From: Paenibacillus massiliensis 2301065 = DSM 16942
GTDB lineage: Bacteria; Bacillota; Bacilli; Paenibacillales; Paenibacillaceae
Direction of reading: 5' to 3'
DNA: 24,000 nt
Assembly: GCF_000377505.1 (NCBI RefSeq)
Contig: NZ_KB898200.1
Location: 21,665-45,664 of the forward strand
Numbering within the stretch: the first letter of the stretch is position 1; every line of letters begins with the position of its first letter. A program made the translations under genes and the position numbers. Shown here one piece after another: positions 1-18,056 of this stretch. The notes below the pieces were generated by a model. It saw only the letters and a list, made by a program, of their open reading frames with translations, was not told the origin of the DNA and made no database searches.

Positions 1-672
1 ACAGCAATAGTGCATTATATATATAGGCTTGTTGAATCAATTCGTATCGTTAATTCGAATGCAGAGAATAAAATAAGTGCATTATTATTATTTTTATCCT
101 CTGTTTGTGATAATAAAAACAATAATAAAATAGGATCTATTTTCTTATATCCATTTTTAACTATGTTTTGCAATAGACATTACAAAAGTTTAGAAGATGC
201 AGGAGTAACTGCTGAATTTTTATCTTCAGATAACGATTTACTTCGTGAGCTAGTAAATGGAAATGTTGAAAGGGCTATAGAGATTTGTTTGAATTATTCA
301 CATAAATCGGAATATAGTAACGTTATGAAAGTTTTGACTCAAATTTCATTTGATCAAAATAGAGATTCTATTAATAAGGAAGTAGAATTCTTGGCTCTAG
401 CGAGTCCTAATATAAGTGATAATGAACTAGCAGAAGTAATTATAAGAATTTTAACAGTGAGCCCTCTTAATAAAGATGCATTAATTCATAAACTAATTTT
501 GATGCATCGGCTCGGTGATTTCATTACAGCACTCGAGACTGCTGAAGTTTTAAGAGTATTCTACCCGAAGGACAACAAAGTTTTATTATTAATTGCCCAA
601 TTTTATAGTGCAATTGGATTAATTGAGCAAAGCGAAAGTCTACGAATTGTAGGCCATTCAGACCTTGAGTAA
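1..672 (+). CDS. C-terminal part of a larger protein entering from upstream; helical-repeat (TPR-like) tail, function unknown
   Basis: Frame 1 is open from nt 1, with no stop before the track's GTG at 10. The stop is TAA at 670-672. It has the same AT-rich composition and strand as the downstream sugar genes. The last ~90 aa read like paired amphipathic helices (LILMHRLGDFITALETAEVLRVFYPKDNKVLLLIAQFYSAIGLIEQ). I recognised no family-diagnostic motif. Confidence 0.55.
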   Translation, partial: TAIVHYIYRLVESIRIVNSNAENKISALLLFLSSVCDNKNNNKIGSIFLYPFLTMFCNRHYKSLEDAGVTAEFLSSDNDLLRELVNGNVERAIEICLNYSHKSEYSNVMKVLTQISFDQNRDSINKEVEFLALASPNISDNELAEVIIRILTVSPLNKDALIHKLILMHRLGDFITALETAEVLRVFYPKDNKVLLLIAQFYSAIGLIEQSESLRIVGHSDLE

Positions 673-732
673 CCACTCATCATCTTTTTCGTATAATCTG
701 AATTTTTAGAAAAGTAATAGGGGCGTGTAAAA

Positions 733-1512
733 ATGAAAGTTGTGATTCTGGCTGGGGGATATGGTACTAGAATTAGTGAGGAAAGTCATTTAAAACCAAA
801 GCCTATGATTGAGATAGGCGATAAGCCAATTCTTTGGCATATTATGAAAATCTACAGTCATTACGGATATAACGATTTTATAATTTGTCTTGGTTATAAA
901 GGTTATGTCATAAAGGAATTTTTCGCTGATTATTACCTTCATGCCTCAGATGTTACCTTTGACTTTGTAAATGAGAACCGACTAACCATCCACAATAATG
1001 TATCTGAGCCTTGGCGTGTTACGCTGGTTGATACGGGGCGTGACACTATGACTGGTGGAAGGATAAAAAGAATTCAGAAATATATAGGCCAAGAAAGATT
1101 TATGATGACTTATGGAGATGGAGTTTCTGATGTAGATATTAGCGCTCTTGAACAATACCATTCTCTGTCAGGCGGTTTAGTTACAATGACAGCAATTCAG
1201 CCTGGAGGGCGATTCGGTGTACTAGATATTGACGAAGCTACAAATCGAGTAGAAAGGTTTGCAGAGAAATCGAAAGAGGATGGTGGATGGATCAACGGAG
1301 GTTTTATGGTAATTGAGCCTGAAATATTTGATTATATTCATGACGACAAGACAGTATTTGAAAGCGAAGCTTTATCAAGAGTTGCTGAAGATGATAAGTT
1401 GGAAGCTTTCAAACACCATGGTTTTTGGCAGTGTATGGATACCCAACGTGACAAGGGAGTTTTGGAAAACCTTTGGAGAAGTGAAAAAGCGCCTTGGAAA
1501 TTATGGGATTAA
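733..1512 (+). CDS. rfbF: glucose-1-phosphate cytidylyltransferase (RfbF/DdhA type; makes CDP-glucose)
   Basis: The N-terminus MKVVILAGGYGTRISEESHLKPKPMIEIGDKPILWHIMK is the nucleotidyltransferase G-loop. The full 259-aa protein (YGDGVSDVDI, GGFMVIEPEIF, HHGFWQCMDTQRDK) matches my memory of RfbF-type enzymes. An AGGGG RBS lies ~9 nt upstream of the ATG. Confidence 0.9.
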   Translation: MKVVILAGGYGTRISEESHLKPKPMIEIGDKPILWHIMKIYSHYGYNDFIICLGYKGYVIKEFFADYYLHASDVTFDFVNENRLTIHNNVSEPWRVTLVDTGRDTMTGGRIKRIQKYIGQERFMMTYGDGVSDVDISALEQYHSLSGGLVTMTAIQPGGRFGVLDIDEATNRVERFAEKSKEDGGWINGGFMVIEPEIFDYIHDDKTVFESEALSRVAEDDKLEAFKHHGFWQCMDTQRDKGVLENLWRSEKAPWKLWD

Positions 1513-1540
1513 CTACATTGAAGTGAAATGGGGTTTTTAG

Positions 1541-2629
1541 GTGGTAATATCTAACATTACGAAAAATGATATGAGTTTTATCTATAATAATTTGTCTCAG
1601 GATGACAAAGAAAAGTTGAAGGGCAGCACGCTTCTCGTTACGGGTTATGCTGGATCACTCGGATATTCGTTACTTCACTTTTTTGTTGAATATGGTGAAG
1701 TGTTAGGTGTTAAAAAAGTGTTTGGCATTGATAATTATATGTTTGGAAAACCAGCATGGGTTAAAAGAGTTTCAGAGCATCCTTTATTTGATTTGCGCGA
1801 GTTGGATATTATTAATTGTGATCTCGAATTTGCAGAGAGTGCTGATATTATTTTTCATATGGCTTCACTAGCCTCTCCTGTTTATTATCGACTACATCCG
1901 ATAGAGACAATTGATGCGGATGTAACTGGGGTAAGACGTCTATTAGAATTTTATAAAACCAAAAAAATAAAAGGTTTTTTATTTTATTCTAGTAGTGAGA
2001 TTTATGGGGACCCCCATCTTTCTCAAATTCCAACTCCAGAAGAATATTGGGGGAATGTTAATCCTTGTGGACCTAGAGCCTGTTATGATGAATCAAAACG
2101 TTTTGGCGAAACACTCTGTTATAATTTTTCAAGACAGTTTGGTATGCCAACAACAATCGTACGTCCTTTTAATAATTATGGACCTGGGATGAGAATTAAT
2201 GATCAACGGGTTGTAGCTGATTTTGCTCAAGCTATAGTAAATAATGAGGATATTGTTATTTACTCGGATGGTACTCCAACACGAACCTTTGACTATATCC
2301 CTGATGCTACAGTCGGTTATATAAAGTGTGCATTGTATGGGAAGTTTGACATATTTAATATTGGATCTGATGGTCCAGAAATTAGTGTGAGACAGCTAGC
2401 TGAAATGTACCGTAATATTGGTTTTGAAATTAATCAGTATTCTGGAAATATATCATTTAAAGTTCATAATGATGAGGAATATCTTGTTGATAATCCTAAT
2501 AGACGTTGTCCCAATATAAATAAAGCAAAACATATACTTGGTTATAATCCTCAAATTCATATTGAGGAGGGAATAAAAAGATATCTTAATTATTTGGTGA
2601 ATTGCGACCGAGAGGAGTATTTCTGGTGA
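1541..2629 (+). CDS. extended SDR NAD-dependent epimerase/dehydratase, UDP-glucuronate decarboxylase (UXS/ArnA-C)-like
   Basis: It has a GxxGxxG Rossmann loop ([11 protein letters not shown]). The block [38 protein letters not shown] closely parallels the UXS signature [30 protein letters not shown], which includes the YxxxK catalytic pair. The GTG start at 1541 is the first start after the in-frame TAG; an ATG at 1571 is an alternative. Confidence 0.8.
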   Translation: [362 protein letters not shown]

Positions 2630-3753
2630 ATGATTTTTCGATCGATATGTTGACAAACCAAGAAAATAAAGCCGATATTTTTTTGAAAATATGTTCTGAG
2701 GCTTTAGAAAAAGAAAAAAAACCGATAATTTTGTTGGGATCAGGGATAATTGGTGAGTTTTATTTGAGTTATATTAAAGAAATTGAAATGGATGTAGAAA
2801 TATTATTTTGCGATAATGACCCTATTAAATGGGGAACATATATAAATGGGATTCTTGTAATTAGCTTTGAAGAATTGATCCAAAGATATAGGGACTCTTA
2901 TTTTATCATTTCATCATTTAATTACTATGATGAGTTAAATACTCAATTATCAAATTATGCTTTGGAACCACTTGTGAAATTGAAGAAAAACGAGATTTTT
3001 GTCGATGATTATGATTTTTATTTCAAATTTAAAAACTATAAAAAAGTAATTGAAAATAATTTACTTAAATTTAAACAAGTTTATGATCTTCTTGAGGATG
3101 AAGAATCAAGAAGGATATTTATCGATAGAATAAACTATTGTATTTCTTTAAACAGCAATTTTTTGGCTCCCCTAAGAAGTCAATCACCTCAGTATTTTGA
3201 GGAGGGGATAATTTCATTGAATGATGATGAAATTTTCATTGATGGTGGAGGATGCATCGGAGAAACAGTTAAAGAGTTTGTAGACCAAACTGGGGGTCAG
3301 TATAGAAAGATTTATTCTCTGGAGCCCGAGACTGTTAAACATAAGGAATACTCAAAAAGAGTATTCATGGATGAGAAAATAGAAATTGTGCCTATGGGTC
3401 TATGGAATAAACGTTCGAAACTTAAGTTTGTTGGCAGGAATAGTGGCACCAGTTCTATTTCTCCAAACGGCAACATGGAGGTGGATGTAATATCCATAGA
3501 TGAATTGCTGCATGGTTCAGAAGCTACTTTTATCAAAATGGACATTGAAGGTTCAGAGATGAAAGCACTGATTGGAGCTCAAAATACTATTGAAACTTAT
3601 AGGCCAAAGTTAGGAATATGTATTTATCATGAACCATTAGATATTGTTGACATACCTTTGTACATTAAAGGGCTTGTCCCAGAGTATAAAATCTATATGA
3701 GGCACTATAATTATGGTTCATCTGAAACAGTTTGCTATGCAATAAGTATCTGA
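2626..3753 (+). CDS. FkbM-family SAM-dependent methyltransferase with an N-terminal Rossmann-like module
   Basis: The C-terminal half carries FkbM-type motifs (IFIDGGGCIGETV, ATFIKMDIEGSEMKALIGA, ICIYH). I chose the GTG at 2626 over the track's 2602 because GAGGAG lies 9 nt upstream and GTGA overlaps the upstream stop. Confidence 0.8.
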   Translation: MNDFSIDMLTNQENKADIFLKICSEALEKEKKPIILLGSGIIGEFYLSYIKEIEMDVEILFCDNDPIKWGTYINGILVISFEELIQRYRDSYFIISSFNYYDELNTQLSNYALEPLVKLKKNEIFVDDYDFYFKFKNYKKVIENNLLKFKQVYDLLEDEESRRIFIDRINYCISLNSNFLAPLRSQSPQYFEEGIISLNDDEIFIDGGGCIGETVKEFVDQTGGQYRKIYSLEPETVKHKEYSKRVFMDEKIEIVPMGLWNKRSKLKFVGRNSGTSSISPNGNMEVDVISIDELLHGSEATFIKMDIEGSEMKALIGAQNTIETYRPKLGICIYHEPLDIVDIPLYIKGLVPEYKIYMRHYNYGSSETVCYAISI

Positions 3754-3801
3754 ATATTAGAAAGTTTCACCTCGTGACAAGTTTAAAAGGCGGTGGTTTG
3801 A

Positions 3802-5127
3802 GTGAGTGATGTAAGCGACAAAGCCCTTGTACTAATTGATAAAATAAAATCCAGAAAATTAACTGTGGGTATAGTTGGTTTGGGTTATGTTGGTCTTCCG
3901 TTGGCCTTGGCGTTCACAAACGCATTGATAAAAGTCATTGGATTTGATATAGACCCGTCTAAAATTAGAGCTCTAAAAAAGGGAGAAAGTTATTTTTCTC
4001 ATATTGACTCTAGTCAAATAAAAGAAGCTGTAGAAAAAGGATTATTAGACGGAACAACTGAATTTTCAAGAGTTCAGGAAACAGATATTGTCATTTTGTG
4101 TTTGCCTACCCCACTGAATAAATATAGAGAACCTGACTTATCTTATGTTACAGGCACACTAGAGTCTATATTACCTTATTTAAGAAAAAATCAGGTAATA
4201 AGTCTTGAGAGTACGACCTATCCTGGAACAACTGATGAAGAGCTTAAAACAAGATTGGAGGAAAATGGTTTTAGAATTGGCGAAGACTTTTATTTGATTT
4301 ATTCACCTGAACGAGAAGATCCAGGAAATCCTAATTTTACAACTAGAACTATTCCTAAAATAGTTGGAGGTACTACTCAAAATTGTTTGAAAGTAGGAAC
4401 TGCACTGTATGAGATTGTTGTTAGTAACGTGATACCAGTAAGTTCCACAAGGGTTGCAGAACTAACAAAACTTCTCGAAAATATTTATCGCTCTATTAAC
4501 ATAGGGCTTGTTAATGAAATGAAAATTATTGCTGATAAAATGAATATTGATATCTGGGAGGTGATAGAGGCTGCTTCGTCAAAACCTTTCGGATTTACTC
4601 CTTTTACTCCAGGACCTGGATTAGGTGGACACTGCATACCAATTGATCCATTCTATCTGACTTGGAAGGCAAAGGAATATGGGATTCATTCTAAATTTAT
4701 AGAATTGTCTGGGGAAGTAAATACTTCAATGCCTAGTTGGGTCATCAACAAGGTCTCAGATGGTCTCAATGAAAGAGAGAAATCAATTAAAAATTCTAAT
4801 ATCCTAATAGTAGGTTTGTCATACAAAAAAAATATTGATGATATTAGAGAGTCTCCCTCAGTTGAACTTATGGAAATTCTAAGAGATAAAGGTGCTAAGC
4901 TTTACTATTCTGATCCTTATATCCCTTCCTTTCCTAAAATGCGTGAGCATTTTTTTCATATGGAAAGTGTTGAGTTAACTACTGATATTTTAGAAAAAAT
5001 GGATTGTGTTTTGATTAGTACAGATCATGATCTTTTTGATTATGATTTAATTCTTAAACACAGTGACTTAATTGTAGATACAAGAGGCGTTTATAGAGGT
5101 GAAAAGGAAAACGTTATACGAGCATAA
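3802..5127 (+). CDS. nucleotide-sugar dehydrogenase, UDP-N-acetyl-hexosamine 6-dehydrogenase type (WbpA/WecC/TviB-like)
   Basis: It has the N-terminal NAD loop VGIVGLGYVGLPLALAF and the catalytic-Cys motif GLGGHCIPIDPFYL. The 441-aa length and the IVGLSYKKNIDDIRESP C-terminal domain are typical of this subfamily. The substrate assignment is inference. Confidence 0.85.
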   Translation: MSDVSDKALVLIDKIKSRKLTVGIVGLGYVGLPLALAFTNALIKVIGFDIDPSKIRALKKGESYFSHIDSSQIKEAVEKGLLDGTTEFSRVQETDIVILCLPTPLNKYREPDLSYVTGTLESILPYLRKNQVISLESTTYPGTTDEELKTRLEENGFRIGEDFYLIYSPEREDPGNPNFTTRTIPKIVGGTTQNCLKVGTALYEIVVSNVIPVSSTRVAELTKLLENIYRSINIGLVNEMKIIADKMNIDIWEVIEAASSKPFGFTPFTPGPGLGGHCIPIDPFYLTWKAKEYGIHSKFIELSGEVNTSMPSWVINKVSDGLNEREKSIKNSNILIVGLSYKKNIDDIRESPSVELMEILRDKGAKLYYSDPYIPSFPKMREHFFHMESVELTTDILEKMDCVLISTDHDLFDYDLILKHSDLIVDTRGVYRGEKENVIRA

Positions 5128-5163
5128 TCAAATCCTTCAAGATTTTGAAAGGTGCTAATTTTT

Positions 5164-6345
5164 ATGATAAGAGGAAATAAAATCAAAGCTTTATTTGTTA
5201 ATGGTTTGCCTATTGATATGGGAGGAATTGAAAAGTCAACTATGGAAATTCTACGCGAGATTAATCATGAAAAGTTGCAGCTTGATTTCGCAGTAAGAAA
5301 GCCCGATAAAGGTTGTTTTCACGATGAAATAGAAAATTATGGTGGGGAAATATACAATGTTTTTGAAAAGACTAAGCATAAGGGAAAGAAAAAATGGAAT
5401 TTAATAATGGATATATACTCCTTATTTGGGTTCTATAGAATTCTCAAACAAAAAGGCCCTTACAACGCGATTCACATTGTTCATCCTTTTCTTGATGGTT
5501 TTTTAATTATTGCCGCCATATTAGCTAAGGTTCCGGTTAGAATCGTTCATAGCCGTTATACTGGGATAGATGACAAAATTAAACCTGGTATTCTTCTTAA
5601 ATTAACTCGTAAGTTTAGAGCTTCATTATGCAAAAAATATGCTACTCATATTTGGGGATGTTCAATAGCTGCAGCCCAACATCATTTTGGTAAAACAATA
5701 ACGGATGATAAAAGGTTGGAGATACCTGAAAATCCAATAAAAGTAGTTGATTATTTGACGAAGAAATGTACTAAGGATGAAGCATGCTCCATCTTGAATA
5801 TTTCTTATGACAATATAAATTTTTTGCATGTTGGTAGGTTTACAGATTCAAAAAACCAGTTATTCCTACTCTCTTTATTCTCCCAATTATTAACGAGTGA
5901 AGGAAACATTCATTTGGTAATAGTGGGGGGAGGGGCATTGGAAGATCAATTGAAAGATCGTATACAAACTCTTGGTATTGAACGTAATGTGACTATGTTA
6001 CCAAGTGATACAAACATACAGATCGCTCTCGCAGCATCAGACTATTTTCTCTTTCCCTCATTGTATGAAGGTTTTGGTAATGTCCTAATTGAAGCACAAG
6101 CAGCTGGAGTCCCATGTATAGCATCCGATAGATGTCCAACTGAAACCAATATGGGCTTAATTGATTATCTTCCTTTAGAGCAAGGAACGGAGTTATGGGA
6201 AAAATTTATTTTGAACATTTTAAAGAATCCAAATAACAGGGAACTTATGGTCGAAAAGATTCTAAATCATGATGTAACAGTAGTTGCTCCTCGCATGGAA
6301 GGTGTATATATAAAAGGACAAAAATACTATGAAAACTACAATTGA
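5164..6345 (+). CDS. glycosyltransferase, GT-B fold (GT4/'group 1')
   Basis: The C-terminal signature FLFPSLYEGFGNVLIEAQAAGVPCIASD is the EX7E-type GT4 motif. I preferred the ATG at 5164, which follows GAAAGG; the track's GTG at 5152 is an alternative. Confidence 0.85.
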   Translation: MIRGNKIKALFVNGLPIDMGGIEKSTMEILREINHEKLQLDFAVRKPDKGCFHDEIENYGGEIYNVFEKTKHKGKKKWNLIMDIYSLFGFYRILKQKGPYNAIHIVHPFLDGFLIIAAILAKVPVRIVHSRYTGIDDKIKPGILLKLTRKFRASLCKKYATHIWGCSIAAAQHHFGKTITDDKRLEIPENPIKVVDYLTKKCTKDEACSILNISYDNINFLHVGRFTDSKNQLFLLSLFSQLLTSEGNIHLVIVGGGALEDQLKDRIQTLGIERNVTMLPSDTNIQIALAASDYFLFPSLYEGFGNVLIEAQAAGVPCIASDRCPTETNMGLIDYLPLEQGTELWEKFILNILKNPNNRELMVEKILNHDVTVVAPRMEGVYIKGQKYYENYN

Positions 6346-6364
6346 GAAGCTAGGTGAAGGGTTA

Positions 6365-7618
6365 ATGAACTATAAAATAACAGTTTTCGGCCTTGGATTC
6401 GTAGGATTAACTACGGCCCTTGCCTTTGCAGAAAAAGGTCATACAGTTCATGGTTATGATGTTAATGTACAAAGAACAGAATTACTTAATTCAGGTAAGC
6501 TCCCATTTGTAGAACCAGGCTTAGATGATGCATTATTAAGACATATAAATAATAAATTTAGTATTACCACAGATGTAATTACTTCTGTCAAAGAAAGTGA
6601 TTTTATTTTTCTGTGCGTCGGCACGCCACAAGGAGAGAATGGCGAAGCTGATTTGAAGTATATTTTCTCTGCTATAGATACTTTCTCGCCTATTTTAAAT
6701 GATAGTAAGTATAGAACAGTAGTTATTAAATCTACAATTCCACCATCGACTACTGCTGAACGAATAGTACCCTATTTTTCTTCGAAAGACCTACTCCCGG
6801 GTAAAGAATTTAGTATTGCCAATAATCCTGAGTTTCTCAGGGAAGGGAAATGTTGGGAGGATATGATGAATGCCGATCGCATTGTGTGCGGAGTGGCTGA
6901 TTCTAGAGGTGAAGAGATGCTCAAATCTCTATATCGTTCGTTTGATTCCCCTTTCTTTGGAGTTTCTTTGAATACTGGTGAATACATTAAATATTTATCC
7001 AACACCCTACTAGCTACGATGATTAGTTATGCAAATGAAATGTCTAAAGTTGCTGATGCAATTGGTGGTATTCAAATTAAAGAAGCGTTCGAGATTCTTC
7101 ATATGGATCGTCGTTGGGGGGGGGCTTCAATGGCGTCTTATGTCTACCCTGGTTGTGGTTATGGTGGATATTGTTTGCCAAAGGACACACAAGCCATGTA
7201 TGCTAAATCGCTATCGAAAGGATATGCACCTGAAATTTTAAAACATGTAATTGAAGTTAATGATACAATGCCTGAATTTATGGTAGATAGAATCATGAAG
7301 GTTGCAAAAGAAACGGACAGTATAGGAATACTTGGTTTATCCTTCAAGCCTGGTTCAGATGATGTAAGAGATAGTTCCTCAGCTAAAATTATAAAATCAT
7401 TAATGGCGTCCAATTATAAAAATATTAATGTGTTTGATCCTGTTGCTAATAAAGCATTTGCTAGTGAGTATGATCTAAGTATAAATTACTACGATACCTT
7501 AGATGAGATTTGTACCGAATCTACAGTGCTTGTTTTAGTCACCGCATGGGACGAATTTGCTGCAGTCAATAAAAAATATCCATTAAAGACATTTGTAGAC
7601 TGTAGATATTATTTGTGA
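6365..7618 (+). CDS. UDP-glucose/GDP-mannose dehydrogenase family protein (UDP-glucose 6-dehydrogenase-like)
   Basis: It has the NAD loop ITVFGLGFVGLTTALAFAEKGH, ANNPEFLREG, and the catalytic Cys in GYGGYCLPKD. I preferred the ATG at 6365 (GGTGAAGG upstream), which avoids overlap with the GT4 gene; the track start is 6329. Confidence 0.85.
   Translation: MNYKITVFGLGFVGLTTALAFAEKGHTVHGYDVNVQRTELLNSGKLPFVEPGLDDALLRHINNKFSITTDVITSVKESDFIFLCVGTPQGENGEADLKYIFSAIDTFSPILNDSKYRTVVIKSTIPPSTTAERIVPYFSSKDLLPGKEFSIANNPEFLREGKCWEDMMNADRIVCGVADSRGEEMLKSLYRSFDSPFFGVSLNTGEYIKYLSNTLLATMISYANEMSKVADAIGGIQIKEAFEILHMDRRWGGASMASYVYPGCGYGGYCLPKDTQAMYAKSLSKGYAPEILKHVIEVNDTMPEFMVDRIMKVAKETDSIGILGLSFKPGSDDVRDSSSAKIIKSLMASNYKNINVFDPVANKAFASEYDLSINYYDTLDEICTESTVLVLVTAWDEFAAVNKKYPLKTFVDCRYYL
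7116..7124 (+). repeat. G9 homopolymeric tract inside the dehydrogenase CDS
   Basis: Direct reading gives ...cgtcgtt GGGGGGGGG cttcaatgg..., translated W-G-G. It is in frame as sequenced. Confidence 0.95.
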
Positions 7619-7626
7619 GGTGTTTT

Positions 7627-8928
7627 ATGCCACTTTTGAGTATTATCATTCCAGTGTATAATGTTGAACATTATCTTGAAGATTGCCTCAAAAGCATACT
7701 TAGCCAATTATTTCAGGATTATGAGGTTATCCTAGTTAATAATGCATCAACTGATAGTAGTGGAAGTATATGTAGCAAGTATGCCGAACAATACAGTTGC
7801 ATAAGGACAGTTCATCTCGAGCGTAATGTACTACCTGCTGGAGCAAGAAATGTTGGGCTAGAGATCTCGCAAGGCGATTATGTACACTTTTGTGACAGTG
7901 ATGATTATTACACTGAAGGAAGTTTGCAATTATTGGCGGATTTACTGAATCAAAGGGGCCCATCGGTTGTAATGGGCCAATTTTTATGTGTTCCTGAAAA
8001 AGGGGCATATGTAACCTCCGATGTTGATTTAAACTCAGAAATCATAGAAAAAGGAAACTCATCAAATATATCTGAGTATCTTCTTTCTTTGCCACAGTTA
8101 TTATGCACTCCATGGAGACTGGTCGTAAAAAGGGATGTTCTTATAACTAATGATATAAAGTTTCCTGAGGGGATCCACTCAGAAGATGAGGAGTGGTTCC
8201 CAAAAGTTATCTGCTGCTCAGACACTTTTGCACATCTACCAGTTCCCTTTTACTGTTACCGTCCAAGAGCAGTTGGTTCTATCACTTCATCCAAATCATT
8301 CATAAATAGTAAGTCACACCTTGTGGTAGCATTGAATTTAATTCGTTTTTTACTGAATAAAAAATACACAGATAGAAGAAAAAAACTGATTGAATCACGA
8401 ATCACTTTTCTATTGGGGCTGTTTTCAACTCGATGTGATACCTTTACCAGGTCTGAAATTGCCGAGTTGGCAGTTATTTTGAGAGAGGAGCTAGAGCCAT
8501 TAACAGATGTTGAAGAGTCTCTTTATTCTTCACTATTCAAACTTGTGAGTCTATTTGGAGCTACTATGGGATTGCAGTTGTATAAAACTCTTGTTGAAGA
8601 AGTTACTATAGGTTTGGTATCAACCCACGAGGGCAAAGATATCTATGTTTTTCCAACGGGCTATAACGGTGAGGCAACTGCAAGAATTTTGAAAAAGCAA
8701 GGATACAGTGTGAAAGGTTTCTTAGATAATAGCGTGTCAAAAGCAGGTTCTGAGTTAAATGAACTTCCAGTAATGTTACCAAGTGTTCTTCAAGAGATAC
8801 CGGCTTCTAATCTTGAAAATACCTTTGTCATCATATCAACGCAGCAGGAAAAAATATCAAGCGCTTTAATGAATCAACTTAGAGAATTAGGCTTGAAGGA
8901 TAGTCAATTTGCTAAAAGAATTTATTAG
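7627..8928 (+). CDS. GT2 (GT-A fold) glycosyltransferase fused to a C-terminal Rossmann-like module
   Basis: It has LSIIIPVYNVEHYLEDCLKSILSQ, ILVNNASTDSS and a DxD motif (FCDSDDYY). The ATG at 7627 lies 5 nt after GAGGTG. The last ~100 aa (GKDIYVFPTGYNGEATARILKKQGYSVKGFLDNSVSKAGS) lie outside the GT2 fold. Confidence 0.85.
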   Translation: MPLLSIIIPVYNVEHYLEDCLKSILSQLFQDYEVILVNNASTDSSGSICSKYAEQYSCIRTVHLERNVLPAGARNVGLEISQGDYVHFCDSDDYYTEGSLQLLADLLNQRGPSVVMGQFLCVPEKGAYVTSDVDLNSEIIEKGNSSNISEYLLSLPQLLCTPWRLVVKRDVLITNDIKFPEGIHSEDEEWFPKVICCSDTFAHLPVPFYCYRPRAVGSITSSKSFINSKSHLVVALNLIRFLLNKKYTDRRKKLIESRITFLLGLFSTRCDTFTRSEIAELAVILREELEPLTDVEESLYSSLFKLVSLFGATMGLQLYKTLVEEVTIGLVSTHEGKDIYVFPTGYNGEATARILKKQGYSVKGFLDNSVSKAGSELNELPVMLPSVLQEIPASNLENTFVIISTQQEKISSALMNQLRELGLKDSQFAKRIY

Positions 8929-8951
8929 TGAAATTAGGGGGGGAGAGTAGG

Positions 8952-9902
8952 ATGGAACTTAGTCCACATAAAATGAGCGTTATAATGTGCACTTATAATA
9001 GACCAGAATTTCTGGAACGTTCCATTGAAAGCATTCTCTCGCAAACATTTGAGGATTTTGAATTTGTATTAGTTAATAATGGATCGACGGATAGCAGTTT
9101 TGAATTGTGTGAGTATTATCAAGCAAAAGACAAACGAATCAAACTTATCAATATCCCGATCAACGAAGGAGCTGCTAAAGGTAGAAACAGGGGGCTAATG
9201 GAAGCTTCGGGGGAGTATATAACCTTTGTTGATGATGATGACTATTGTGAACCAAGGATGCTGCAGGTTCTTTGGGAGTTATCTCAGACATATGATGCTG
9301 ATATTGCTTTATGCGGTAGTTGGAATAATATTAACGGGGAATTAGAGCCTTATTTTATATTTGATGACACCCTTGTACTTAATAAAGTTCAAGCACTAGA
9401 CGAGCTTTTGTTAAGAAAACGTTATAATGTTGCTCCCCCTACAAAGTTATTTCGAAAAAAACTATTTGATGGCGTAACATTTAAGGAAAATGTTTTGGTG
9501 GATGACATACATGTGATTTATAAGGTTTTTGCCAACGCGGATATAGTGGTAGCTAACGGTGAACCTCTTTATAGTTTTAGAAAACATCCTAATAATATGA
9601 CGCATTTTATTCAGAGTAATAGGCCTTCTCCAGAAATTATTAAGGAATACTTATCAGCATTTAAAGAGCGTACAGCTTATCTATCTGAAAAAGTGAGACC
9701 AATATCAGAGAGGGCTAAATACTCAGAACTCTCATATATGTTATCCATGTGCAATAGAATTAAAAACTTTGAAGAAATTGATTATTCTAAGCACTACAAT
9801 GAAATGTTAAATGAAATTAGTGATAATTACCAATTTTTGATTAATTGCCCTTACACTGAGGAAGAAGAAATAAAGCTTCTTAATACACTAATGATACGAT
9901 AA
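8952..9902 (+). CDS. GT2 (GT-A fold) glycosyltransferase
   Basis: It has MSVIMCTYNRPEFLERSIESILSQTF, VLVNNGSTDSS and DxD (FVDDDDY). I preferred the ATG at 8952, with GGAG 6 nt upstream; the track's GTG at 8928 is an alternative. Confidence 0.85.
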   Translation: MELSPHKMSVIMCTYNRPEFLERSIESILSQTFEDFEFVLVNNGSTDSSFELCEYYQAKDKRIKLINIPINEGAAKGRNRGLMEASGEYITFVDDDDYCEPRMLQVLWELSQTYDADIALCGSWNNINGELEPYFIFDDTLVLNKVQALDELLLRKRYNVAPPTKLFRKKLFDGVTFKENVLVDDIHVIYKVFANADIVVANGEPLYSFRKHPNNMTHFIQSNRPSPEIIKEYLSAFKERTAYLSEKVRPISERAKYSELSYMLSMCNRIKNFEEIDYSKHYNEMLNEISDNYQFLINCPYTEEEEIKLLNTLMIR

Positions 9903-9986
9903 AATGTTGAACTATAATAGTAAGTGGCGTAATGAAGTATTATGCGAATAATTAAGTTATACATTTTCGAATGATGGAGCCGTGAC

Positions 9987-10025
9987 AAATCCCTGCTGTC
10001 CTAACTAGCAGGGATTTATTATTTG
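9987..10025 (+). terminator. intrinsic terminator closing the AT-rich operon
   Basis: A perfect 11-bp stem, AAATCCCTGCT (9987-9997) paired with AGCAGGGATTT (10007-10017), encloses a 9-nt loop and is followed by ATTATTT. Confidence 0.8.
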
Positions 10026-10047
10026 AGCACTCATTGGAATAGGCTGT

Positions 10048-10074
10048 TGTAGATTTAATTTGATATGCCGATAT
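10048..10074 (+). promoter_or_regulatory. candidate sigma-D (sigma-28, flagellar) promoter
   Basis: There is an exact 8/8 match to the B. subtilis sigma-D -10 consensus GCCGATAT at 10067-10074. It sits 66 nt upstream of the fliB-like ATG and after the terminator. The -35 is poor: TGTAGATT matches TAAAGTTT at 5 of 8 positions, and there is no clean TAAA at the 15-nt spacing. Confidence 0.45.
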
Positions 10075-10139
10075 TCTTTAGAGAAGCCCTTGTGTAGTTA
10101 AAATGCTAATGGACTAGGTCCTAATTTAGGAGTGAACGT

Positions 10140-11408
10140 ATGAGCACAGCAAAGGCACTTGTCCCTGAATATATGACACAATTTCAATGTATTGGTTCCA
10201 CATGTGAGGACAGCTGCTGCATTGGTTGGAAGGTTGTTATGGATAAGAAAACATACCAAAATCTTTCCAACGTACCACATAAGCAGCTCAGAGAGACCTT
10301 TAAGAATGGTTCTGTAAAACGGGAGCAGAAGGTCCGAACGGATGATCAATTTGCCATGATGAAAATGGATGCGGAGACAGGCTGCTGCTCCATGCTGAAT
10401 GAACAGAAGCTATGCAACATTCATGCTTCCATTGGTGAGAACTATCTAGCGCCAATCTGTGCAACTTATCCACGTAATATTCACTACGTCAACGAACAGC
10501 AGGAAATATCGGCAGTCATGTCCTGTCCTGAAGCAGCACGGCTAGCGTTATTGAATCCTGACAAAATGGCATTCACTTATGTCGAACCTGTAGAGTATGG
10601 GAACGCGCTGATTAAAGCTAACATTTTTCCAGAGCGCCAGTCCGCCAACTATATGGGAGCATTTTGGCCAATTCGTATTTTTGTCATTGAGATCCTGCAG
10701 AGTAGAGAGTTCAGCTTTCCACATCGAATGTTAGTTCTGGGACTGTTTTGTGAGCAGCTGCAGCAACTTATCAGCCAAGGTATGGATCAGGAAGATAAGG
10801 TTCAAGATCTGATTGAGCGCTTTAAAATCATGATGACAACGAATGAAGAGCTGCGTAACTTCGATACTTTTCCGACAAATTCAGAGTTCCAATTCATTAC
10901 ATTAAATAATATTGTGTCGAAAAATCTGAATAACATCGGCTCTAATGAAAGATTCAGAGAATGTATCAGGGATTACCTGGAGGGCATGAACCCAAGCGAG
11001 CTGGAGAACAGGACGGAGGCTAATGTCGTTGATCGATATGATCAGGCTTACATGGACTACTATAAGCCTTTCATGGATGAGCATGAGCATATTTTTGAGA
11101 ACTATGCGGTGAACTTTATGTTCTCACACCTGTTCCCCAAGAATAATAGCCGAAATGTATTTAAGATCTATACGATCTTGGTTAGCCATTATGTACTGAT
11201 GAAATTACTGCTCATCGGAATGTCAGCGAAGCATCAGGGCTTAACGGCTCAATTGGTAGTAAAGCTTATACAGACATTTACCAAGACCTCGGAGCATTCC
11301 AATCAATATGTAGATAACATCCTGGAATTCCTGACGGCTAACCAGTATGGGACGGTAGGCCACATGAGTCTGTTGATTAAGAATGGATTGGGGGAAGTAG
11401 CCAAATGA
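10140..11408 (+). CDS. fliB: FliB-family protein (flagellin lysine-N-methylase homologue)
   Basis: The Cys-rich N-terminus FQCIGSTCEDSCCIGWKVVMDKKTY, then CCSMLNEQKLCNIHASIGENYLAPICATYPR and MSCPEAARLALLNPD, follow the motif order I recall for Salmonella FliB (F.C.GS.C.D.CC.GWK..LDK; LC..H; C..FPR; SCPEAA..L.NP). An AGGAG RBS lies 7 nt upstream of the ATG. Confidence 0.75.
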   Translation: MSTAKALVPEYMTQFQCIGSTCEDSCCIGWKVVMDKKTYQNLSNVPHKQLRETFKNGSVKREQKVRTDDQFAMMKMDAETGCCSMLNEQKLCNIHASIGENYLAPICATYPRNIHYVNEQQEISAVMSCPEAARLALLNPDKMAFTYVEPVEYGNALIKANIFPERQSANYMGAFWPIRIFVIEILQSREFSFPHRMLVLGLFCEQLQQLISQGMDQEDKVQDLIERFKIMMTTNEELRNFDTFPTNSEFQFITLNNIVSKNLNNIGSNERFRECIRDYLEGMNPSELENRTEANVVDRYDQAYMDYYKPFMDEHEHIFENYAVNFMFSHLFPKNNSRNVFKIYTILVSHYVLMKLLLIGMSAKHQGLTAQLVVKLIQTFTKTSEHSNQYVDNILEFLTANQYGTVGHMSLLIKNGLGEVAK

Positions 11409-12148
11409 GTGTATCAGCAGCTATGATTGTAAGAGATTCCGAGCGATGTATTGCTCGCTGCCTGGATAGTATAGTTGATGCTGTAGATGAGATTGTCATC
11501 GTGGATACGGGTTCTACGGATCGAACATTGGATATTATCGAGCAATATATCAAGAACTATCATCATATTAAGCTCTATCACTTCAAATGGATTGATGACT
11601 TTGCCGCTGCGCGCAACTACTCTCTTGGGAAGGTTACCCACGACTGGGTATTTGTCGTTGACTCCGATGATGTTTTGCCCGCCACAGAGCAGGCAAAGGT
11701 GCGCTCTTATGTCCAGAGACAGCTGGAGACAGCGCAGGAAGCCGTCTTTGATATTGTATATGATAACACCGTGGCCGGAGACATCGTTGAGGTAATTGAA
11801 GTGGGATATGTAAGACTGTTCCCGGCGCATTTAAGATATGAGGATCGCATCCATGAACAGATATCCTTTGGGGACCTGCCACGGCTACGGAGTGATATTC
11901 ACTTGCTGCATGATGGCTATGACGTAAACATTGTCGACCTTAAGGCCAAGAAGAAACGTAACGTTGACTTACTCATTGCGAGTCTGCAGGCTAATCAAGA
12001 TAACGCCAGATTATGGCTTCATTTGGCAAGAGAGATGTCCGTGCTGGATCAGGCTAAGGCGCGGAGATATCTGGATATTGCAGAATCAAAGACTAGTAAT
12101 GTTGATCTCTTAAGGCTTATTAATAATGAAAGATCAGCAATATCCTAA
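11405..12148 (+). CDS. small GT2 glycosyltransferase of the protein-modifying, TPR-associated type
   Basis: SAAMIVRDSERCIARCLDSIVDAVDEIVIVDTGSTDRTLDII .. WIDDFAAARNYSL .. VVDSDDV is the signature of the GT2 subgroup usually fused to TPR repeats. A short helical tail (ARLWLHLAREMSVLDQAKARRYLDIA) follows. An ATGA overlap with the fliB-like stop suggests translational coupling. Confidence 0.8.
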   Translation: MSVSAAMIVRDSERCIARCLDSIVDAVDEIVIVDTGSTDRTLDIIEQYIKNYHHIKLYHFKWIDDFAAARNYSLGKVTHDWVFVVDSDDVLPATEQAKVRSYVQRQLETAQEAVFDIVYDNTVAGDIVEVIEVGYVRLFPAHLRYEDRIHEQISFGDLPRLRSDIHLLHDGYDVNIVDLKAKKKRNVDLLIASLQANQDNARLWLHLAREMSVLDQAKARRYLDIAESKTSNVDLLRLINNERSAIS

Positions 12149-12308: not shown

Positions 12309-12362
12309 CGGAAATGTGGGCGAGAGCTTCACTTCATTTGATGACGAAGGGAATGTTAGTGC

Positions 12363-12560
12363 ATGCAAGGTAAAGTAAAATGGTTTAACGCAGAAAAAGG
12401 TTACGGTTTCATTGAAACAGCCGAAGGCGGCGACGTATTCGTACATTTCTCCGCAATCCAATCTGAAGGCTTCAAAACCCTCGAAGAAGGACAAGACGTT
12501 GAATTCGATATCGTTGAAGGCGCTCGTGGTCCGCAAGCAGCTAACGTAATCAAATTATAA
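12363..12560 (+). CDS. cold-shock protein, CspA/CspB family
   Basis: [62 protein letters not shown] contains the RNP1 (KGYGFI) and RNP2 (VFVHF) motifs. It is near-identical in pattern to B. subtilis CspB. Confidence 0.97.
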
Positions 12561-12855: not shown

Positions 12856-13413
12856 ATGAACTTTACAGTTCGAGGTCAACAAATCGAGGTTACTGACGCT
12901 TTGAAAGAGTATGTTGAGAAAAAGCTTAGCAGACTTGAGAGATACTTTGATGCACCCCCAACATCTGATGGAAGTGTCACGTTAAGCACCACAAGAGGAC
13001 TTCACACCGTAGAAGTTACCATTCCTTTGCCGGGGTTAGTACTCCGGGCCGAAGACGAAAGTGAGGATATGTACGCATCCATCGATGCAGTTACGGACAA
13101 GCTTGAACGTCAGATCCGCAAGCACAAAACAAAGCTGAACCGCAAATTCCGCCAGGATCGTGGCTTGAAGACGCTGTTTGTAGAAGAGCCGGTTACGAAT
13201 GGCTCCGCTAGCGCTGATGAGCTGGATCATGATGATCTGGAGGTCGTGCGTACCAAGCGTTTCCTCTTGAAGCCAATGGATGTGGAAGAAGCGATTCTGC
13301 AAATGAATATGGTTGGACATAATTTCTTTGTATTCTCCAACATCGACAATGAAGAAGTGAATGTAGTGTATAAGCGTAACGACGGCAAGTATGGCCTGAT
13401 CGAGCAAGAGTAA
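12856..13413 (+). CDS. hpf: ribosome hibernation promoting factor (long HPF, YvyD type)
   Basis: MNFTVRGQQIEVTDALKEYVEKKLSRLERYF .. LERQIRKHKTKLNRKFR .. RTKRFLLKPMDVEEAILQMNMVGHNFFVFSN..VNVVYKRNDGKYGLIE aligns along its length with B. subtilis YvyD as I recall it. AAGGAGG lies 8 nt upstream of the ATG at 12856; the track start at 12820 has no RBS. Confidence 0.95.
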   Translation: MNFTVRGQQIEVTDALKEYVEKKLSRLERYFDAPPTSDGSVTLSTTRGLHTVEVTIPLPGLVLRAEDESEDMYASIDAVTDKLERQIRKHKTKLNRKFRQDRGLKTLFVEEPVTNGSASADELDHDDLEVVRTKRFLLKPMDVEEAILQMNMVGHNFFVFSNIDNEEVNVVYKRNDGKYGLIEQE

Positions 13414-18054: not shown

Positions 18055-18056
18055 TA

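What the first reader, a model, noticed from the sequence alone, without database searches (positions are those of the whole stretch)
1..10025. AT-rich sugar/glycosyltransferase operon with no export machinery, next to hpf-secA-prfB: candidate horizontally acquired flagellin glycosylation island
Seen: nt 1 to about 9,960 are far more AT-rich than the rest. 60-nt spot counts give 30% G+C at 1-60, 40% at 10,141-10,200 and 52% at 15,001-15,060. Nine co-directional, tightly packed ORFs (for example the GTGA overlap at 2626-2629) end at a strong terminator (9987-10025), just after the composition changes. The eight annotated enzymes and the truncated first ORF all look soluble, and none shows multi-span hydrophobic segments. 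The window has no Wzx/Wzy, ABC exporter, chain-length regulator or polyprenyl-phosphate priming transferase. Established: surface-polysaccharide loci need those functions, whereas cytoplasmic O-glycosylation of flagellin (Campylobacter, Clostridium, Listeria, Paenibacillus and others) does not. In B. subtilis, hpf (yvyD)-secA-prfB lie directly downstream of hag-fliD-fliS-fliT. Inference: this operon, together with the adjacent fliB-like/GT2 pair, is a flagellin-modification island. The enzyme set (CDP-hexose, uronic acids, a possible pentose, O-methylation, three glycosyltransferases) would build a glycan unlike the nonulosonic-acid glycans usually described. No integrase or transposase is visible, and the left border is outside the window.
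Basis: partly seen in the sequence, partly recalled or inferred. Interest (0 to 1): 0.72.

Follow-up and report, generated by a model that had tools for sequence, protein, structure and literature searches.

The report
Strain-variable flagellin glycosylation gene island
This AT-rich block of sugar-making and sugar-transferring genes in a Paenibacillus massiliensis-type genome is very probably a swappable cassette that decorates the flagellar filament protein with sugars inside the cell. Islands of this kind are already known, although this one has an unusual predicted sugar set.

Summary
Positions 1-10025 are 34.6% G+C (GC3 20-30%), against 48-50% (GC3 46-58%) to the right. They hold nine packed, same-strand ORFs with no multi-span membrane protein, ending at a strong terminator (9987-10017).

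- The next genes are a flagellin lysine-N-methylase (FliB equivalog, 302 bits) and a small GT2 whose best solved relative is the catalytic domain of GmaR, the Listeria flagellin O-GlcNAc transferase.
- Close strains with 92-97% identical hpf-secA flanks carry four unrelated low-GC sugar cassettes at this site, one of them NeuB-type.
- In the nearest strain the order is flagellin-flaG-fliD-fliS-…-TPR-GT2s-FliB-sugar cassette-CSD-hpf, with no exporter family recorded for any gene.
- P. amylolyticus has fliD…FliB-CSD-hpf with no sugar genes.

The truncated first ORF is the TPR-like tail of another large GT2.

Not shown: the flagellin gene on this genome's own contig, because the left flank could not be fetched, and the modification itself.

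This is a new member of a known kind (Gram-positive flagellin glycosylation islands, as in Geobacillus and Clostridium).

Side lead: rfbF, the UXS-like SDR and the Ugd-like dehydrogenase form a module conserved in metagenomes. It hints at an undescribed CDP-glucuronate/CDP-pentose route.

The parts
1..672 (+). 3' end of a large glycosyltransferase gene. It encodes the C-terminal helical, TPR-like domain; the N-terminal GT2 domain or domains lie left of the window.
   Evidence: The frame is open to base 1. The word-indexed search found no hit. The exhaustive search found 31-39% identity to the last ~210 residues of 578-917 aa proteins, which carry one or two N-terminal GT2 domains. The family profile hits designed TPR proteins, E=3.5e-6. 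Metagenome contig L014 has the same order: ORF1-like, rfbF, SDR.
733..1512 (+). rfbF, glucose-1-phosphate cytidylyltransferase (makes CDP-glucose).
   Evidence: TIGR02623 equivalog, 411.8 bits against a cutoff of 300. Pfam NTP_transferase.
1541..2629 (+). UXS-like short-chain dehydrogenase: predicted NDP-glucuronate decarboxylase, giving NDP-xylose or a 4-keto-pentose.
   Evidence: Best solved relative is human UDP-glucuronate decarboxylase 2b69, E=2e-52, 182 bits; the next family scores 93 bits. It scores only 42.6 bits against the CDP-glucose 4,6-dehydratase model. Its subfamily is linked to rfbF and a Ugd-like gene in metagenome loci.
2626..3753 (+). FkbM-family methyltransferase, with predicted methylation of the glycan. 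Its start overlaps the SDR stop (GTGA).
   Evidence: PF05050 8e-12 and TIGR01444 51 bits. The 375-aa gene call on the identical Logan contig also records PF05050.
3802..5127 (+). NDP-N-acetylhexosamine 6-dehydrogenase (Cap5O/WecC/TviB-like), making a UDP-HexNAc uronic acid.
   Evidence: TIGR03026 429.5 bits. Best solved relative is Cap5O 3ojl, 1.8e-69. Below the equivalog cutoffs for WecC and TviB.
5152..6345 (+). GT4 glycosyltransferase (predicted elongating enzyme).
   Evidence: Glycos_transf_1 5e-27. One hydrophobic segment only.
6329..7618 (+). Ugd-like NDP-glucose 6-dehydrogenase, making an NDP-glucuronate.
   Evidence: TIGR03026 383.7 bits. AglM and TuaD models score 290 and 275 bits, below their cutoffs. 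Orthologues at 46-58% identity sit directly after the UXS-like gene in metagenome loci.
7615..8928 (+). GT2 glycosyltransferase with an extra ~200-residue C-terminal region.
   Evidence: Glycos_transf_2 1.9e-34 at residues 9-128. No hydrophobic segment reaches the threshold used.
8928..9902 (+). GT2 glycosyltransferase, the last gene of the cassette.
   Evidence: Glycos_transf_2 1.2e-35.
9987..10025 (+). Intrinsic terminator closing the cassette operon.
   Evidence: 12-bp stem with 5 G-C pairs, a 7-nt loop and a T-rich tail. Top site of the scan; also read directly.
10026..10139 (+). Junction between variable and shared DNA. Homology to sibling strains starts at about 10107. GCCGATAT at 10067-10074 resembles a sigma-D -10 box.
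   Evidence: blastn breakpoints against L006 and L007. Motif search gives 5 hits against 0.76 expected. The box is not conserved in the siblings.
10140..11408 (+). fliB, flagellin lysine-N-methylase.
   Evidence: NF038110 equivalog, 301.6 bits against a cutoff of 85. 100% identical to P0001 (UPI00036F533A); its 90%-identity cluster includes WP_233426241.1, named as Paenibacillus massiliensis. 95% identical in L094 and L007.
11405..12148 (+). GmaR-type GT2: predicted flagellin-directed (initiating) O-glycosyltransferase. Its start overlaps fliB by 4 nt.
   Evidence: Best solved relative is the GmaR catalytic domain 22ao, E=1.7e-26, aligned over residues 3-195. Next are the peptide S-glycosyltransferase SunS and a related Glyco_trans_2-like protein, 7msk. 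35% and 25% identical to the GT2 domains of the two TPR-GT2s beside flagellar genes in L010.
12363..12560 (+). Cold-shock-domain gene, the first gene of the conserved right flank. Homology to strain FSL K6-1230 starts at 12196.
   Evidence: ORF read. CSD Pfam in the gene tables of L003, L005, L006 and L007. blastn breakpoints.
12856..13413 (+). hpf (ribosome hibernation factor), a conserved flank marker followed by secA and prfB.
   Evidence: Pfam S30AE plus S30AE_C. The identical protein is found on five contigs.

Best explanation
The region is the right-hand part of a flagellin glycosylation island in a Paenibacillus massiliensis-type genome. The island sits between the late flagellar filament genes and the CSD-hpf-secA-prfB block.

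Proposed mechanism.
1. Cytoplasmic enzymes of the AT-rich cassette make activated sugars.
- RfbF makes CDP-glucose.
- The Ugd-like dehydrogenase and the UXS-like SDR convert an NDP-glucose to the uronic acid and then to a pentose.
- The Cap5O/TviB-like dehydrogenase makes a UDP-HexNAc uronic acid.
- FkbM adds a methyl group.
2. A protein-directed glycosyltransferase attaches the first sugar to Ser/Thr of unexported flagellin. Candidates are the GmaR-type GT2 next to fliB and/or the TPR-tailed GT2 whose end is ORF1.
3. The GT4 and the two plain GT2s extend the chain, and FliB methylates flagellin lysines.
4. Flagellin leaves through the flagellar type III export channel. This is why no lipid carrier, flippase, polymerase or ABC exporter is needed.
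5. The cassette is exchanged between strains by recombination in the conserved flanks, giving strain-specific filament surfaces.

Shown: the gene identities, the composition break, the cassette replacement, and the flagellar neighbourhood in relatives. Inferred: flagellin as the target, which enzyme initiates, the order of sugars, and the sugar identities.
For: Composition and packing.

Enzyme identities.

fliB is an equivalog-level match.

The GT2 at 11405-12148 aligns to the whole GmaR glycosyltransferase domain. GmaR transfers GlcNAc to flagellin (PMC9638930).

ORF1 is the TPR-like tail of a GT2. GT2 plus TPR is the signature used to pick flagellin glycosyltransferases in Clostridium islands (PMC13317340).

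Synteny:
- L010 has flagellin-flaG-fliD-fliS…FliB…sugar cassette-CSD-hpf-secA in a strain 97.4% identical in the flank.
- L009 (P. amylolyticus) has flagellins-flaG-fliD…FliB-CSD-hpf with no sugar genes.
- L001 (Sporosarcina) has flgK-flgL-fliW-flagellin…FliB.

Four different low-GC cassettes occupy the site:
- the window itself;
- L006/L094, a CDP-sugar C-methyl/amino/formyl type with TagD/TagF-like genes;
- L007, a NeuB type with an ISL3 transposase;
- L010.
The sharp homology breakpoints are at window positions 10107 and 12196.

No exporter or priming-transferase family is on record for any called gene in about 15 kb (L010) and 19 kb (L094) of sibling islands.

An independent metagenome island, L023, places the same UXS-like plus dehydrogenase pair 4 kb from a flagellin gene, among TPR-GT2s.

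The pattern matches published Gram-positive flagellin glycosylation islands: 13-30 kb, G+C 8-15% below the genome average, and type varying by strain (PMC5109656).
Against: - The flagellin gene of this genome was not seen. The identical Logan contig runs about 21 kb further left, but only 10 kb flanks are served, and look-ups of the window's own island and fliB proteins returned 'not on record'.
- In sibling L094 no flagellar gene appears within 19 kb left of fliB, so the island is long and its left part here is unknown.
- The sugar enzymes belong to families that also serve wall polysaccharides. There are sub-threshold hits to TuaD, TuaG, TuaC and TviB.
- The fliB-linked GT2 is only 247 aa and lacks the long TPR domain of GmaR. 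It is almost as similar to the glycocin S-glycosyltransferase SunS.
- There is no biochemical evidence of any kind.
Confidence: 0.85

Rival explanations
1. The cassette is part of a cell-wall or capsular polysaccharide locus (teichuronic-acid-like). Its priming transferase, flippase or ABC exporter and polymerase would lie in the unread DNA to the left, and its position next to fliB would be coincidental.
For: There are sub-threshold similarities to TuaD, TuaG, TuaC, TviB, TviE and EPS glycosyltransferases. Uronic-acid enzymes are typical of such polymers. The left flank was not read. Sibling L094 carries TagD/TagF-like genes.
Against: No membrane protein or export function is found in 10 kb here. 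No exporter family is on record for any called gene in 15-19 kb of the sibling islands at the same site. In L010 the whole interval from fliS to hpf is covered and has none. Several of the sibling transferases carry TPR domains, including the TagF-like one, and ORF1 is TPR-like; this suggests protein substrates. The flanking genes are flagellin modifiers.
Confidence: 0.07
2. The glycan is made for another protein or peptide target rather than flagellin. Examples are an S-layer or other surface protein (the VWA/TIG protein seen in the sibling) or a glycocin-type peptide, given the similarity of the small GT2 to SunS.
For: The GT2 at 11405-12148 scores 74-84 bits to SunS and a related Glyco_trans_2-like protein, against 96 bits to GmaR. 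A 1062-aa VWA/TIG protein lies inside the sibling island. Paenibacillus species glycosylate S-layer proteins (own knowledge).
Against: S-layer O-glycosylation uses a lipid carrier, an ABC exporter and a multi-span oligosaccharyltransferase (own knowledge), and none is present. No glycocin precursor, peptidase-ABC exporter or thiol-disulfide genes are seen. The GT2 is translationally coupled to fliB, a flagellin-specific enzyme. The site lies at the end of the filament operon in relatives.
Confidence: 0.05
3. The cassette is a decaying or silent horizontally acquired remnant with no current function.
For: Its composition is strongly foreign. The locus turns over quickly between strains. P. amylolyticus carries a split fliB copy, and L011 has a fragmented GT2-TPR.
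Against: All nine ORFs are intact and full length relative to their families. They have coupled starts and stops and a terminal terminator. An independent Logan assembly is 100% identical over window 2856-13538, which includes most of the cassette.
Confidence: 0.03

Closest known systems
Flagellin glycosylation islands of Geobacillus (De Maayer & Cowan 2016, PMC5109656)
   Same: Gram-positive Bacillales. The island is inserted in the late flagellar filament locus, is 13-30 kb long, has G+C 8-15% below the genome average, and differs in type between close strains. It is made of GT2/GT4 transferases plus sugar-nucleotide and methyl/formyl modification genes. Transposases occur occasionally. Some strains lack the island.
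   Different: In Geobacillus the island lies between flaA2 and flaG and mostly encodes nonulosonic acids with Maf transferases, or rhamnose. Here, judging from relatives, it lies after fliS/fliT and before CSD-hpf. It is joined to fliB and a GmaR-type GT2. It encodes a CDP-glucose/uronic acid/pentose set, and no Maf is seen in the part read.
Flagellar hypervariable regions/FGIs of Clostridium and Clostridioides difficile (PMC13317340; PMC5207245)
   Same: These are strain-variable cassettes next to flagellin genes. Flagellin glycosyltransferases are recognised there as GT2 domains with TPR repeats. Categories without nonulosonic acids are described (dTDP-Fuc4N, glucose, a 3,6-dideoxyhexose).
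   Different: The genus and the insertion point differ. No fliB coupling was seen in the passages read. The sugar enzymes differ.
GmaR of Listeria monocytogenes (flagellin O-GlcNAc transferase and MogR anti-repressor; PMC9638930, PMC3150276)
   Same: The 247-aa GT2 at 11405-12148 aligns with the whole ~180-residue GmaR catalytic domain, with shared DTGSTD, DxD, IHEQ and HxGY motifs.
   Different: GmaR has 637 residues, with TPR, linker and anti-repressor domains. The window protein has only about 50 residues after the catalytic domain and no anti-repressor part. The sugar it transfers is unknown.
FliB flagellin lysine-N-methylase (NCBIfam NF038110; the Salmonella enzyme is known from my own reading)
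   Same: Equivalog-level match over the full model.
   Different: Here it is translationally coupled to a glycosyltransferase and sits at the border of a glycosylation cassette.
UDP-glucose dehydrogenase plus UDP-xylose synthase (UXS) or ArnA decarboxylase pathways
   Same: The SDR is closest to human UXS1 and has a Ugd-like dehydrogenase as a partner. In L016 and L023 a DegT aminotransferase is also present, as with ArnB.
   Different: This SDR subfamily is linked to a glucose-1-phosphate cytidylyltransferase rather than a UDP-glucose source: 20 of 30 loci, against 1 of 50 for more distant UXS relatives. The nucleotide may therefore be CDP. No paper describing a natural CDP-glucuronate or CDP-xylose route was found.

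Membership tests
Flagellin glycosylation island (FGI) | Lies within or directly beside the flagellin/late filament gene cluster. | tested here: inconclusive
   fliB is adjacent in the window. Flagellin-flaG-fliD-fliS lie upstream of the equivalent island in the 97%-related strain and upstream of fliB in P. amylolyticus and Sporosarcina. The window genome's own left flank could not be read.
Flagellin glycosylation island (FGI) | Encodes glycosyltransferases together with nucleotide-sugar synthesis and modification enzymes. | tested here: met
   Five GTs (the ORF1 tail, GT4 and three GT2s), RfbF, a UXS-like SDR, two NDP-sugar dehydrogenases and an FkbM methyltransferase.
Flagellin glycosylation island (FGI) | Has a protein-directed flagellin glycosyltransferase (Maf, or GT with TPR/GmaR-type domain). 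| tested here: met
   GmaR-type GT2, E=1.7e-26 to PDB 22ao. ORF1 is the TPR-like tail of a GT2. This rests on homology only; the acceptor was not tested.
Flagellin glycosylation island (FGI) | No lipid-carrier priming transferase, flippase, polymerase or ABC exporter. | tested here: met
   None in window 1-12148. No such family is on record in the sibling islands L010 and L094. The unread left part remains open.
Flagellin glycosylation island (FGI) | Atypical composition and strain-to-strain presence/absence or replacement. | tested here: met
   G+C is 34.6% against 49.8%, and GC3 is 20-30% against 46-58%. Four different cassettes lie between 92-97% identical flanks, and P. amylolyticus has none.
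Flagellin glycosylation island (FGI) | Flagellin is actually O-glycosylated in a cassette-dependent way. | not testable with these tools
   This needs mass spectrometry of flagellin from wild type and deletion mutants.
Wzx/Wzy- or ABC-dependent surface polysaccharide / teichuronic acid locus | An initiating phosphoglycosyl transferase (WbaP/WecA/TuaA type) plus a flippase or ABC exporter and a polymerase, all multi-span membrane proteins. | tested here: not met
   No such Pfam or NCBIfam hit and no protein with more than one hydrophobic segment in 1-12148. No such family is on record in the sibling islands.
S-layer protein O-glycosylation (slg) cluster of Bacillales | WsfP-type initiation enzyme, ABC transporter and multi-span O-oligosaccharyltransferase (own knowledge of the family). 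| tested here: not met
   Absent from the window.
GmaR orthologue | GT2 catalytic domain with the DxD motif. | tested here: met
   Alignment of query residues 3-195 to GmaR residues 11-200, with DSDD aligned to DADE.
GmaR orthologue | Central TPR domain and C-terminal MogR anti-repressor domain (637 aa; PMC9638930). | tested here: not met
   The protein is 247 aa, with about 50 residues after the catalytic domain. It works like the GmaR transferase domain but is not a GmaR orthologue.
Mobile genomic island (integrative element) | Integrase or transposase, a tRNA or other attachment site, and flanking direct repeats. | tested here: not met
   No such ORF in the window. No Rfam RNA family was matched; a dedicated tRNA scan was not run. 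The left border is unread, so repeats could not be tested. An ISL3 transposase occurs in the L007 cassette and a resolvase next to L023. Replacement by flank recombination fits better.

The most novel reading that the evidence does not exclude
rfbF (733-1512), the UXS-like SDR (1541-2629) and the Ugd-like dehydrogenase (6329-7618) would form a cytidine-linked sugar pathway that has not been described: CDP-glucose to CDP-glucuronate to CDP-xylose or CDP-4-keto-pentose. In some loci the product would then be aminated by DegT. The flagellin of this strain would then carry a methylated pentose/uronic-acid glycan made from CDP-activated donors.

The support is gene linkage only.
- Among 80 metagenome loci, SDR relatives at 43% identity or more have an rfbF homologue close by on the same strand in 20 of 30 cases. 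Most of the exceptions lack left-flank sequence. A Ugd-like gene follows directly.
- Relatives at 40% identity or less have rfbF nearby in 1 of 50 cases.
- No CDP-glucose 4,6-dehydratase accompanies rfbF in the linked loci.
- The full-text searches found no natural CDP-glucuronate or CDP-xylose pathway.
Probability: 0.3. Interest if true: 0.6.

Novelty: new member of a known kind. Interest (0 to 1): 0.4.

Why it matters
Flagellin glycans shape filament assembly, motility, phage attachment and immune recognition. In Gram-positive bacteria they have been described in only seven genera (PMC13317340).

This locus adds a clear Paenibacillus example. One chromosomal site, bounded by the filament genes and CSD-hpf-secA, holds at least four unrelated sugar cassettes in strains that are otherwise 92-97% identical. 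That makes it a natural system for studying how filament surfaces diversify.

It also points to a conserved pair, FliB plus a GmaR-type GT2, as a marker for finding such islands.

The predicted sugar set (HexNAc uronic acid, hexuronic acid or pentose, O-methyl) differs from the nonulosonic acids that dominate the literature.

The rfbF/UXS-like/Ugd-like module may reveal a new nucleotide-sugar route that can be tested with three purified enzymes.

Tried and rejected
Attempts to extend the window's own contig to the left all failed.
- Exact-product look-ups of window FliB (both starts), RfbF, the 441-aa dehydrogenase and P0001 all returned 'not on record'.
- Only the hpf look-up worked. It gave a Logan contig (SRR892148_107) 100% identical to window 2856-13538, which ends short of the window start.
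- ORF1 found nothing in the word-indexed protein search or in the genome or metagenome scans.
- The FliB scan of species-representative genomes gave only a 37%-identical Sporosarcina locus.
- I clustered the sibling's flagellin, FlaG, FliD, FliS and neighbouring proteins to find a P. massiliensis member. None is within 90%.
- A FliD homologue search gave no hit traceable to the window genome.

Other negative results.
- ORF1 shows no BLASTP similarity to the TPR transferases of L006 or L010.
- The idea that the FkbM N-terminus and the C-terminus of the GT2 at 7615-8928 share a domain was not supported.
- A sigma-D promoter for fliB is not established. The -10 box GCCGATAT is perfect, but the -35 is poor and the box is absent in the siblings.
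- Rfam found nothing in the window.

Readings considered and rejected.
- A classic rfbF-rfbG 3,6-dideoxyhexose pathway: the SDR is UXS-like, not a CDP-glucose 4,6-dehydratase.
- A mobile-element reading: there is no integrase or transposase in the window.

Full report
**Observation**

The composition break is real and large. G+C in 1-kb windows is 0.31-0.37 up to position 10000, 0.42-0.45 from 10000 to 14000, and 0.46-0.54 beyond. Mean G+C is 34.6% for 1-10025 and 49.8% for 14231-24000. Third-position G+C is 20-30% in each of the nine left-hand ORFs, against 46-58% in fliB, the small GT2, hpf, secA, prfB, yitT, the HD gene, argC and argJ.

The nine ORFs are all on the + strand, with spacings of 60, 28, -4, 48, 24, -17, -4 and -1 nt. 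The GTGA overlap at 2626-2629 is there. A 12-bp stem-loop with a T-rich tail at 9987-10025 is the strongest terminator-like site in the first 14.3 kb. No island protein has more than one hydrophobic 19-mer, whereas the YitT control has three. No transporter, flippase, polymerase, chain-length or priming-transferase family is hit.

**What the genes are**

- 733-1512 is an equivalog-level glucose-1-phosphate cytidylyltransferase (TIGR02623, 412 bits against a cutoff of 300).
- 1541-2629 is an SDR whose best solved relative by a wide margin is human UDP-glucuronate decarboxylase (182 bits, next family 93 bits). It is not a CDP-glucose 4,6-dehydratase (42.6 bits).
- 2626-3753 is an FkbM methyltransferase.
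- 3802-5127 is a Cap5O/WecC/TviB-like HexNAc 6-dehydrogenase.
- 5152-6345 is a GT4.
- 6329-7618 is a Ugd-like dehydrogenase.
- 7615-8928 and 8928-9902 are GT2s.
- ORF1 (1-672) is open to the window edge and has no word-indexed homologue. An exhaustive search shows it is 31-39% identical to the C-terminal ~210 residues of 578-917 aa proteins, which carry one or two N-terminal GT2 domains. A profile of this family hits designed TPR proteins (E=3.5e-6). ORF1 is therefore the TPR-like tail of a further large glycosyltransferase.

Right of the terminator, 10140-11408 is a flagellin lysine-N-methylase (NF038110, 301.6 bits against a cutoff of 85). The 247-aa GT2 that overlaps it by 4 nt aligns over its whole catalytic domain with GmaR (PDB 22ao, E=1.7e-26), and next with the peptide S-glycosyltransferase SunS and a related Glyco_trans_2-like protein. 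GmaR's N-terminal ~180 residues transfer GlcNAc to flagellin (PMC9638930). Then come a cold-shock gene (12363-12560), hpf, secA, prfB, yitT, an HD-domain gene, argC and argJ.

**Source and relatives**

FliB is 100% identical to P0001 (UPI00036F533A). Its 90%-identity cluster includes WP_233426241.1, which is named as Paenibacillus massiliensis. An exact look-up of Hpf returned a Logan contig (SRR892148_107) that is 100% identical to window 2856-13538, along with contigs of related strains. These relatives share the right flank but not the cassette.

- ERR4163192 (L006/L094) is 95% identical over the shared flank and the compost MAG GCA_003942105.1 (L007) is 92% identical. Their homology to the window starts at 10107, 33 nt before the fliB ATG.
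- In Paenibacillus sp. FSL K6-1230 (L003/L010), 97.4% identical over hpf-secA, homology starts only at 12196.

What lies to the left differs in every strain:
- L006/L094 has a CDP-sugar C-methyl/isomerase/formyl/amino cassette, several TPR transferases, and TagD/TagF-like genes.
- L007 has a DegT-SDR-NeuB-acetyltransferase (nonulosonic acid) cassette with an ISL3 transposase.
- L010 has two TPR-GT2s, a different FliB, a GT2 and a seven-gene CDP-sugar cassette.

All are low in G+C, at 0.33-0.40.

**Flagellar context**

- In L010 the full order is flagellin (277 aa)-flaG-fliD-fliS-106-aa ORF-VWA/TIG protein-GT2-TPR-GT2-TPR-FliB-GT2-cassette-CSD-hpf-secA.
- In P. amylolyticus (L009) it is flgK…DUF6470-fliW-two flagellin genes-split FliB-flaG-fliD…FliB-CSD-hpf…prfB-yitT, with no sugar genes.
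- In Sporosarcina (L001), FliB follows flgK-flgL-DUF6470-fliW-flagellin.

So in this genus the position just upstream of fliB/CSD/hpf is the end of the filament operon. The sugar cassettes are an optional, replaceable insert there. No exporter or priming-enzyme family is on record for any gene in the 15 kb (L010) or 19 kb (L094) of sibling island. In L094 no flagellar gene is reached within 19 kb of fliB, so these islands can exceed 20 kb. The window therefore probably holds only the right half of its own island.

**Limits**

I could not read the window genome's own left flank. All exact look-ups of its island and fliB proteins failed. ORF1 is absent from the genome and metagenome collections. 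The sibling's filament proteins have no relative at 90% or above from this genome. A FliD search led only to an unrelated MAG. The presence of flagellin upstream in this genome is therefore inferred from synteny, not seen. Modification of flagellin is untested.

**Mechanism proposed**

1. Soluble enzymes make the donors. RfbF makes CDP-glucose. The Ugd-like dehydrogenase and the UXS-like SDR give a hexuronic acid and then a pentose. The Cap5O-like dehydrogenase gives a HexNAc uronic acid. FkbM methylates.
2. A protein-directed GT2, either the GmaR-type enzyme or the TPR-tailed ORF1 enzyme, starts the chain on flagellin Ser/Thr in the cytoplasm.
3. The GT4 and the two GT2s extend the chain, and FliB methylates lysines.
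4. The flagellar export apparatus carries the modified protein out.

Gene identities are shown. The acceptor, the order of steps and the sugar identities are inferred.

**Comparison with known systems**

This matches the published picture of Gram-positive flagellin glycosylation islands.
- Geobacillus islands are 13-30 kb, have G+C 8-15% below the genome average, fall into five types, and are absent from half the strains. They contain GT2/GT4, sugar-nucleotide and methyl/formyl genes (PMC5109656).
- Clostridium flagellar hypervariable regions include types without nonulosonic acids, and GT2-plus-TPR proteins are taken there as flagellin transferases (PMC13317340).

The differences here are the insertion point, the fixed FliB plus GmaR-type GT2 pair at the border, and the sugar set. 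It is a new member of a known kind, not a new kind.

**Side finding**

In 80 metagenome loci retrieved with the SDR, relatives at 43% identity or more have an rfbF homologue close by on the same strand in 20 of 30 cases. Most of the rest lack left-flank sequence. Where right-flank sequence is available, a Ugd-like gene nearly always follows directly. Relatives at 40% identity or less have rfbF nearby in 1 of 50 cases. No CDP-glucose 4,6-dehydratase accompanies rfbF in the linked loci. Two loci add a DegT aminotransferase. One of these, L023, is an independent flagellin-adjacent island with three TPR-GT2s. This suggests a CDP-glucose to CDP-glucuronate to CDP-pentose route. Full-text searches found no natural pathway of that kind. 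Alternatively, the RfbF-like enzyme may simply feed an ordinary UDP-xylose pathway.

**Verdict**

- Observation: confirmed.
- Interpretation: supported, confidence about 0.85.
- Novelty: new member of a known kind.
- Interest: 0.4. The value lies in the clean cassette-replacement series and the possible cytidine-linked pentose pathway, not in the existence of the island itself.

Noticed in passing
window 733-2629 and 6329-7618; loci L014-L043: rfbF, a UXS-like SDR and a Ugd-like dehydrogenase form a module conserved across many metagenome contigs, usually adjacent in that order. No CDP-glucose 4,6-dehydratase accompanies them. This may be a CDP-glucuronate/CDP-pentose pathway.
   Followed up: partly
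L023 1-15062 (metagenome contig ERZ808040 NODE-999): An independent flagellin-adjacent island: GT, resolvase, GT2-TPR, GT2, flagellin, GT2-TPR, GT2, UXS-like SDR, dehydrogenase, DegT. The same SDR-dehydrogenase pair therefore occurs beside a flagellin gene elsewhere.
   Followed up: partly
window 10067-10074 (also 2671-2678 +; 10506-10513, 20087-20094 and 21697-21704 on the - strand): GCCGATAT, the Bacillus sigma-D -10 consensus as I recall it, lies 66 nt before the fliB start. The octamer occurs 5 times in the window against 0.76 expected. The -35 is poor, and the box is not conserved before fliB in L006 or L007.
   Followed up: partly
L010 114-3646 versus the window genome: Flagellin, FlaG, FliD and FliS of strain FSL K6-1230 have no relative at 90% or above from P. 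massiliensis. Its FliD is closest to a Logan contig (84%) and then to a second Logan contig (69%) and P. illinoisensis (68%). Yet hpf-secA is 97% identical to the window. The filament genes seem to be exchanged together with the sugar cassette.
   Followed up: partly
window 16938-17013: prfB has the usual programmed +1 frameshift. A short ORF starts at ATG 16938, followed by AGGGGG and CTT TGA C at about 16999-17013. The main frame continues to 18054.
   Followed up: no
L007 6373-7239: An ISL3-family transposase sits inside the NeuB-type cassette of the compost MAG, between two methyltransferase genes. The window cassette has no transposase.
   Followed up: no
L094 524-2413 (- strand): The sibling island contains a TagD-like cytidylyltransferase and a TagF-like glycerophosphotransferase that carries TPR repeats. 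This suggests glycerol-phosphate decoration of a protein-linked glycan.
   Followed up: no
window 19280-19784: The 5' part of the HD-domain gene and its upstream spacer are only 82-86% identical to sibling strains, while the flanking DNA is 94-97% identical.
   Followed up: no
window 13414-14230: The 818-nt hpf-secA spacer has no convincing ORF and no Rfam match. Sibling L007 has a 79-aa gene called there.
   Followed up: no
L012 1-11624 (GCA_001513335.1, unrelated MAG): A NeuB/ATP-grasp/PIG-L/CMP-sugar synthetase cassette lies directly upstream of flaG-fliD. It is another example of the same kind of island, found by accident.
   Followed up: no
L009 5148-6234: P. amylolyticus carries a second fliB copy, split into two ORFs, between its flagellin genes and flaG. 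An intact copy lies before CSD-hpf.
   Followed up: no
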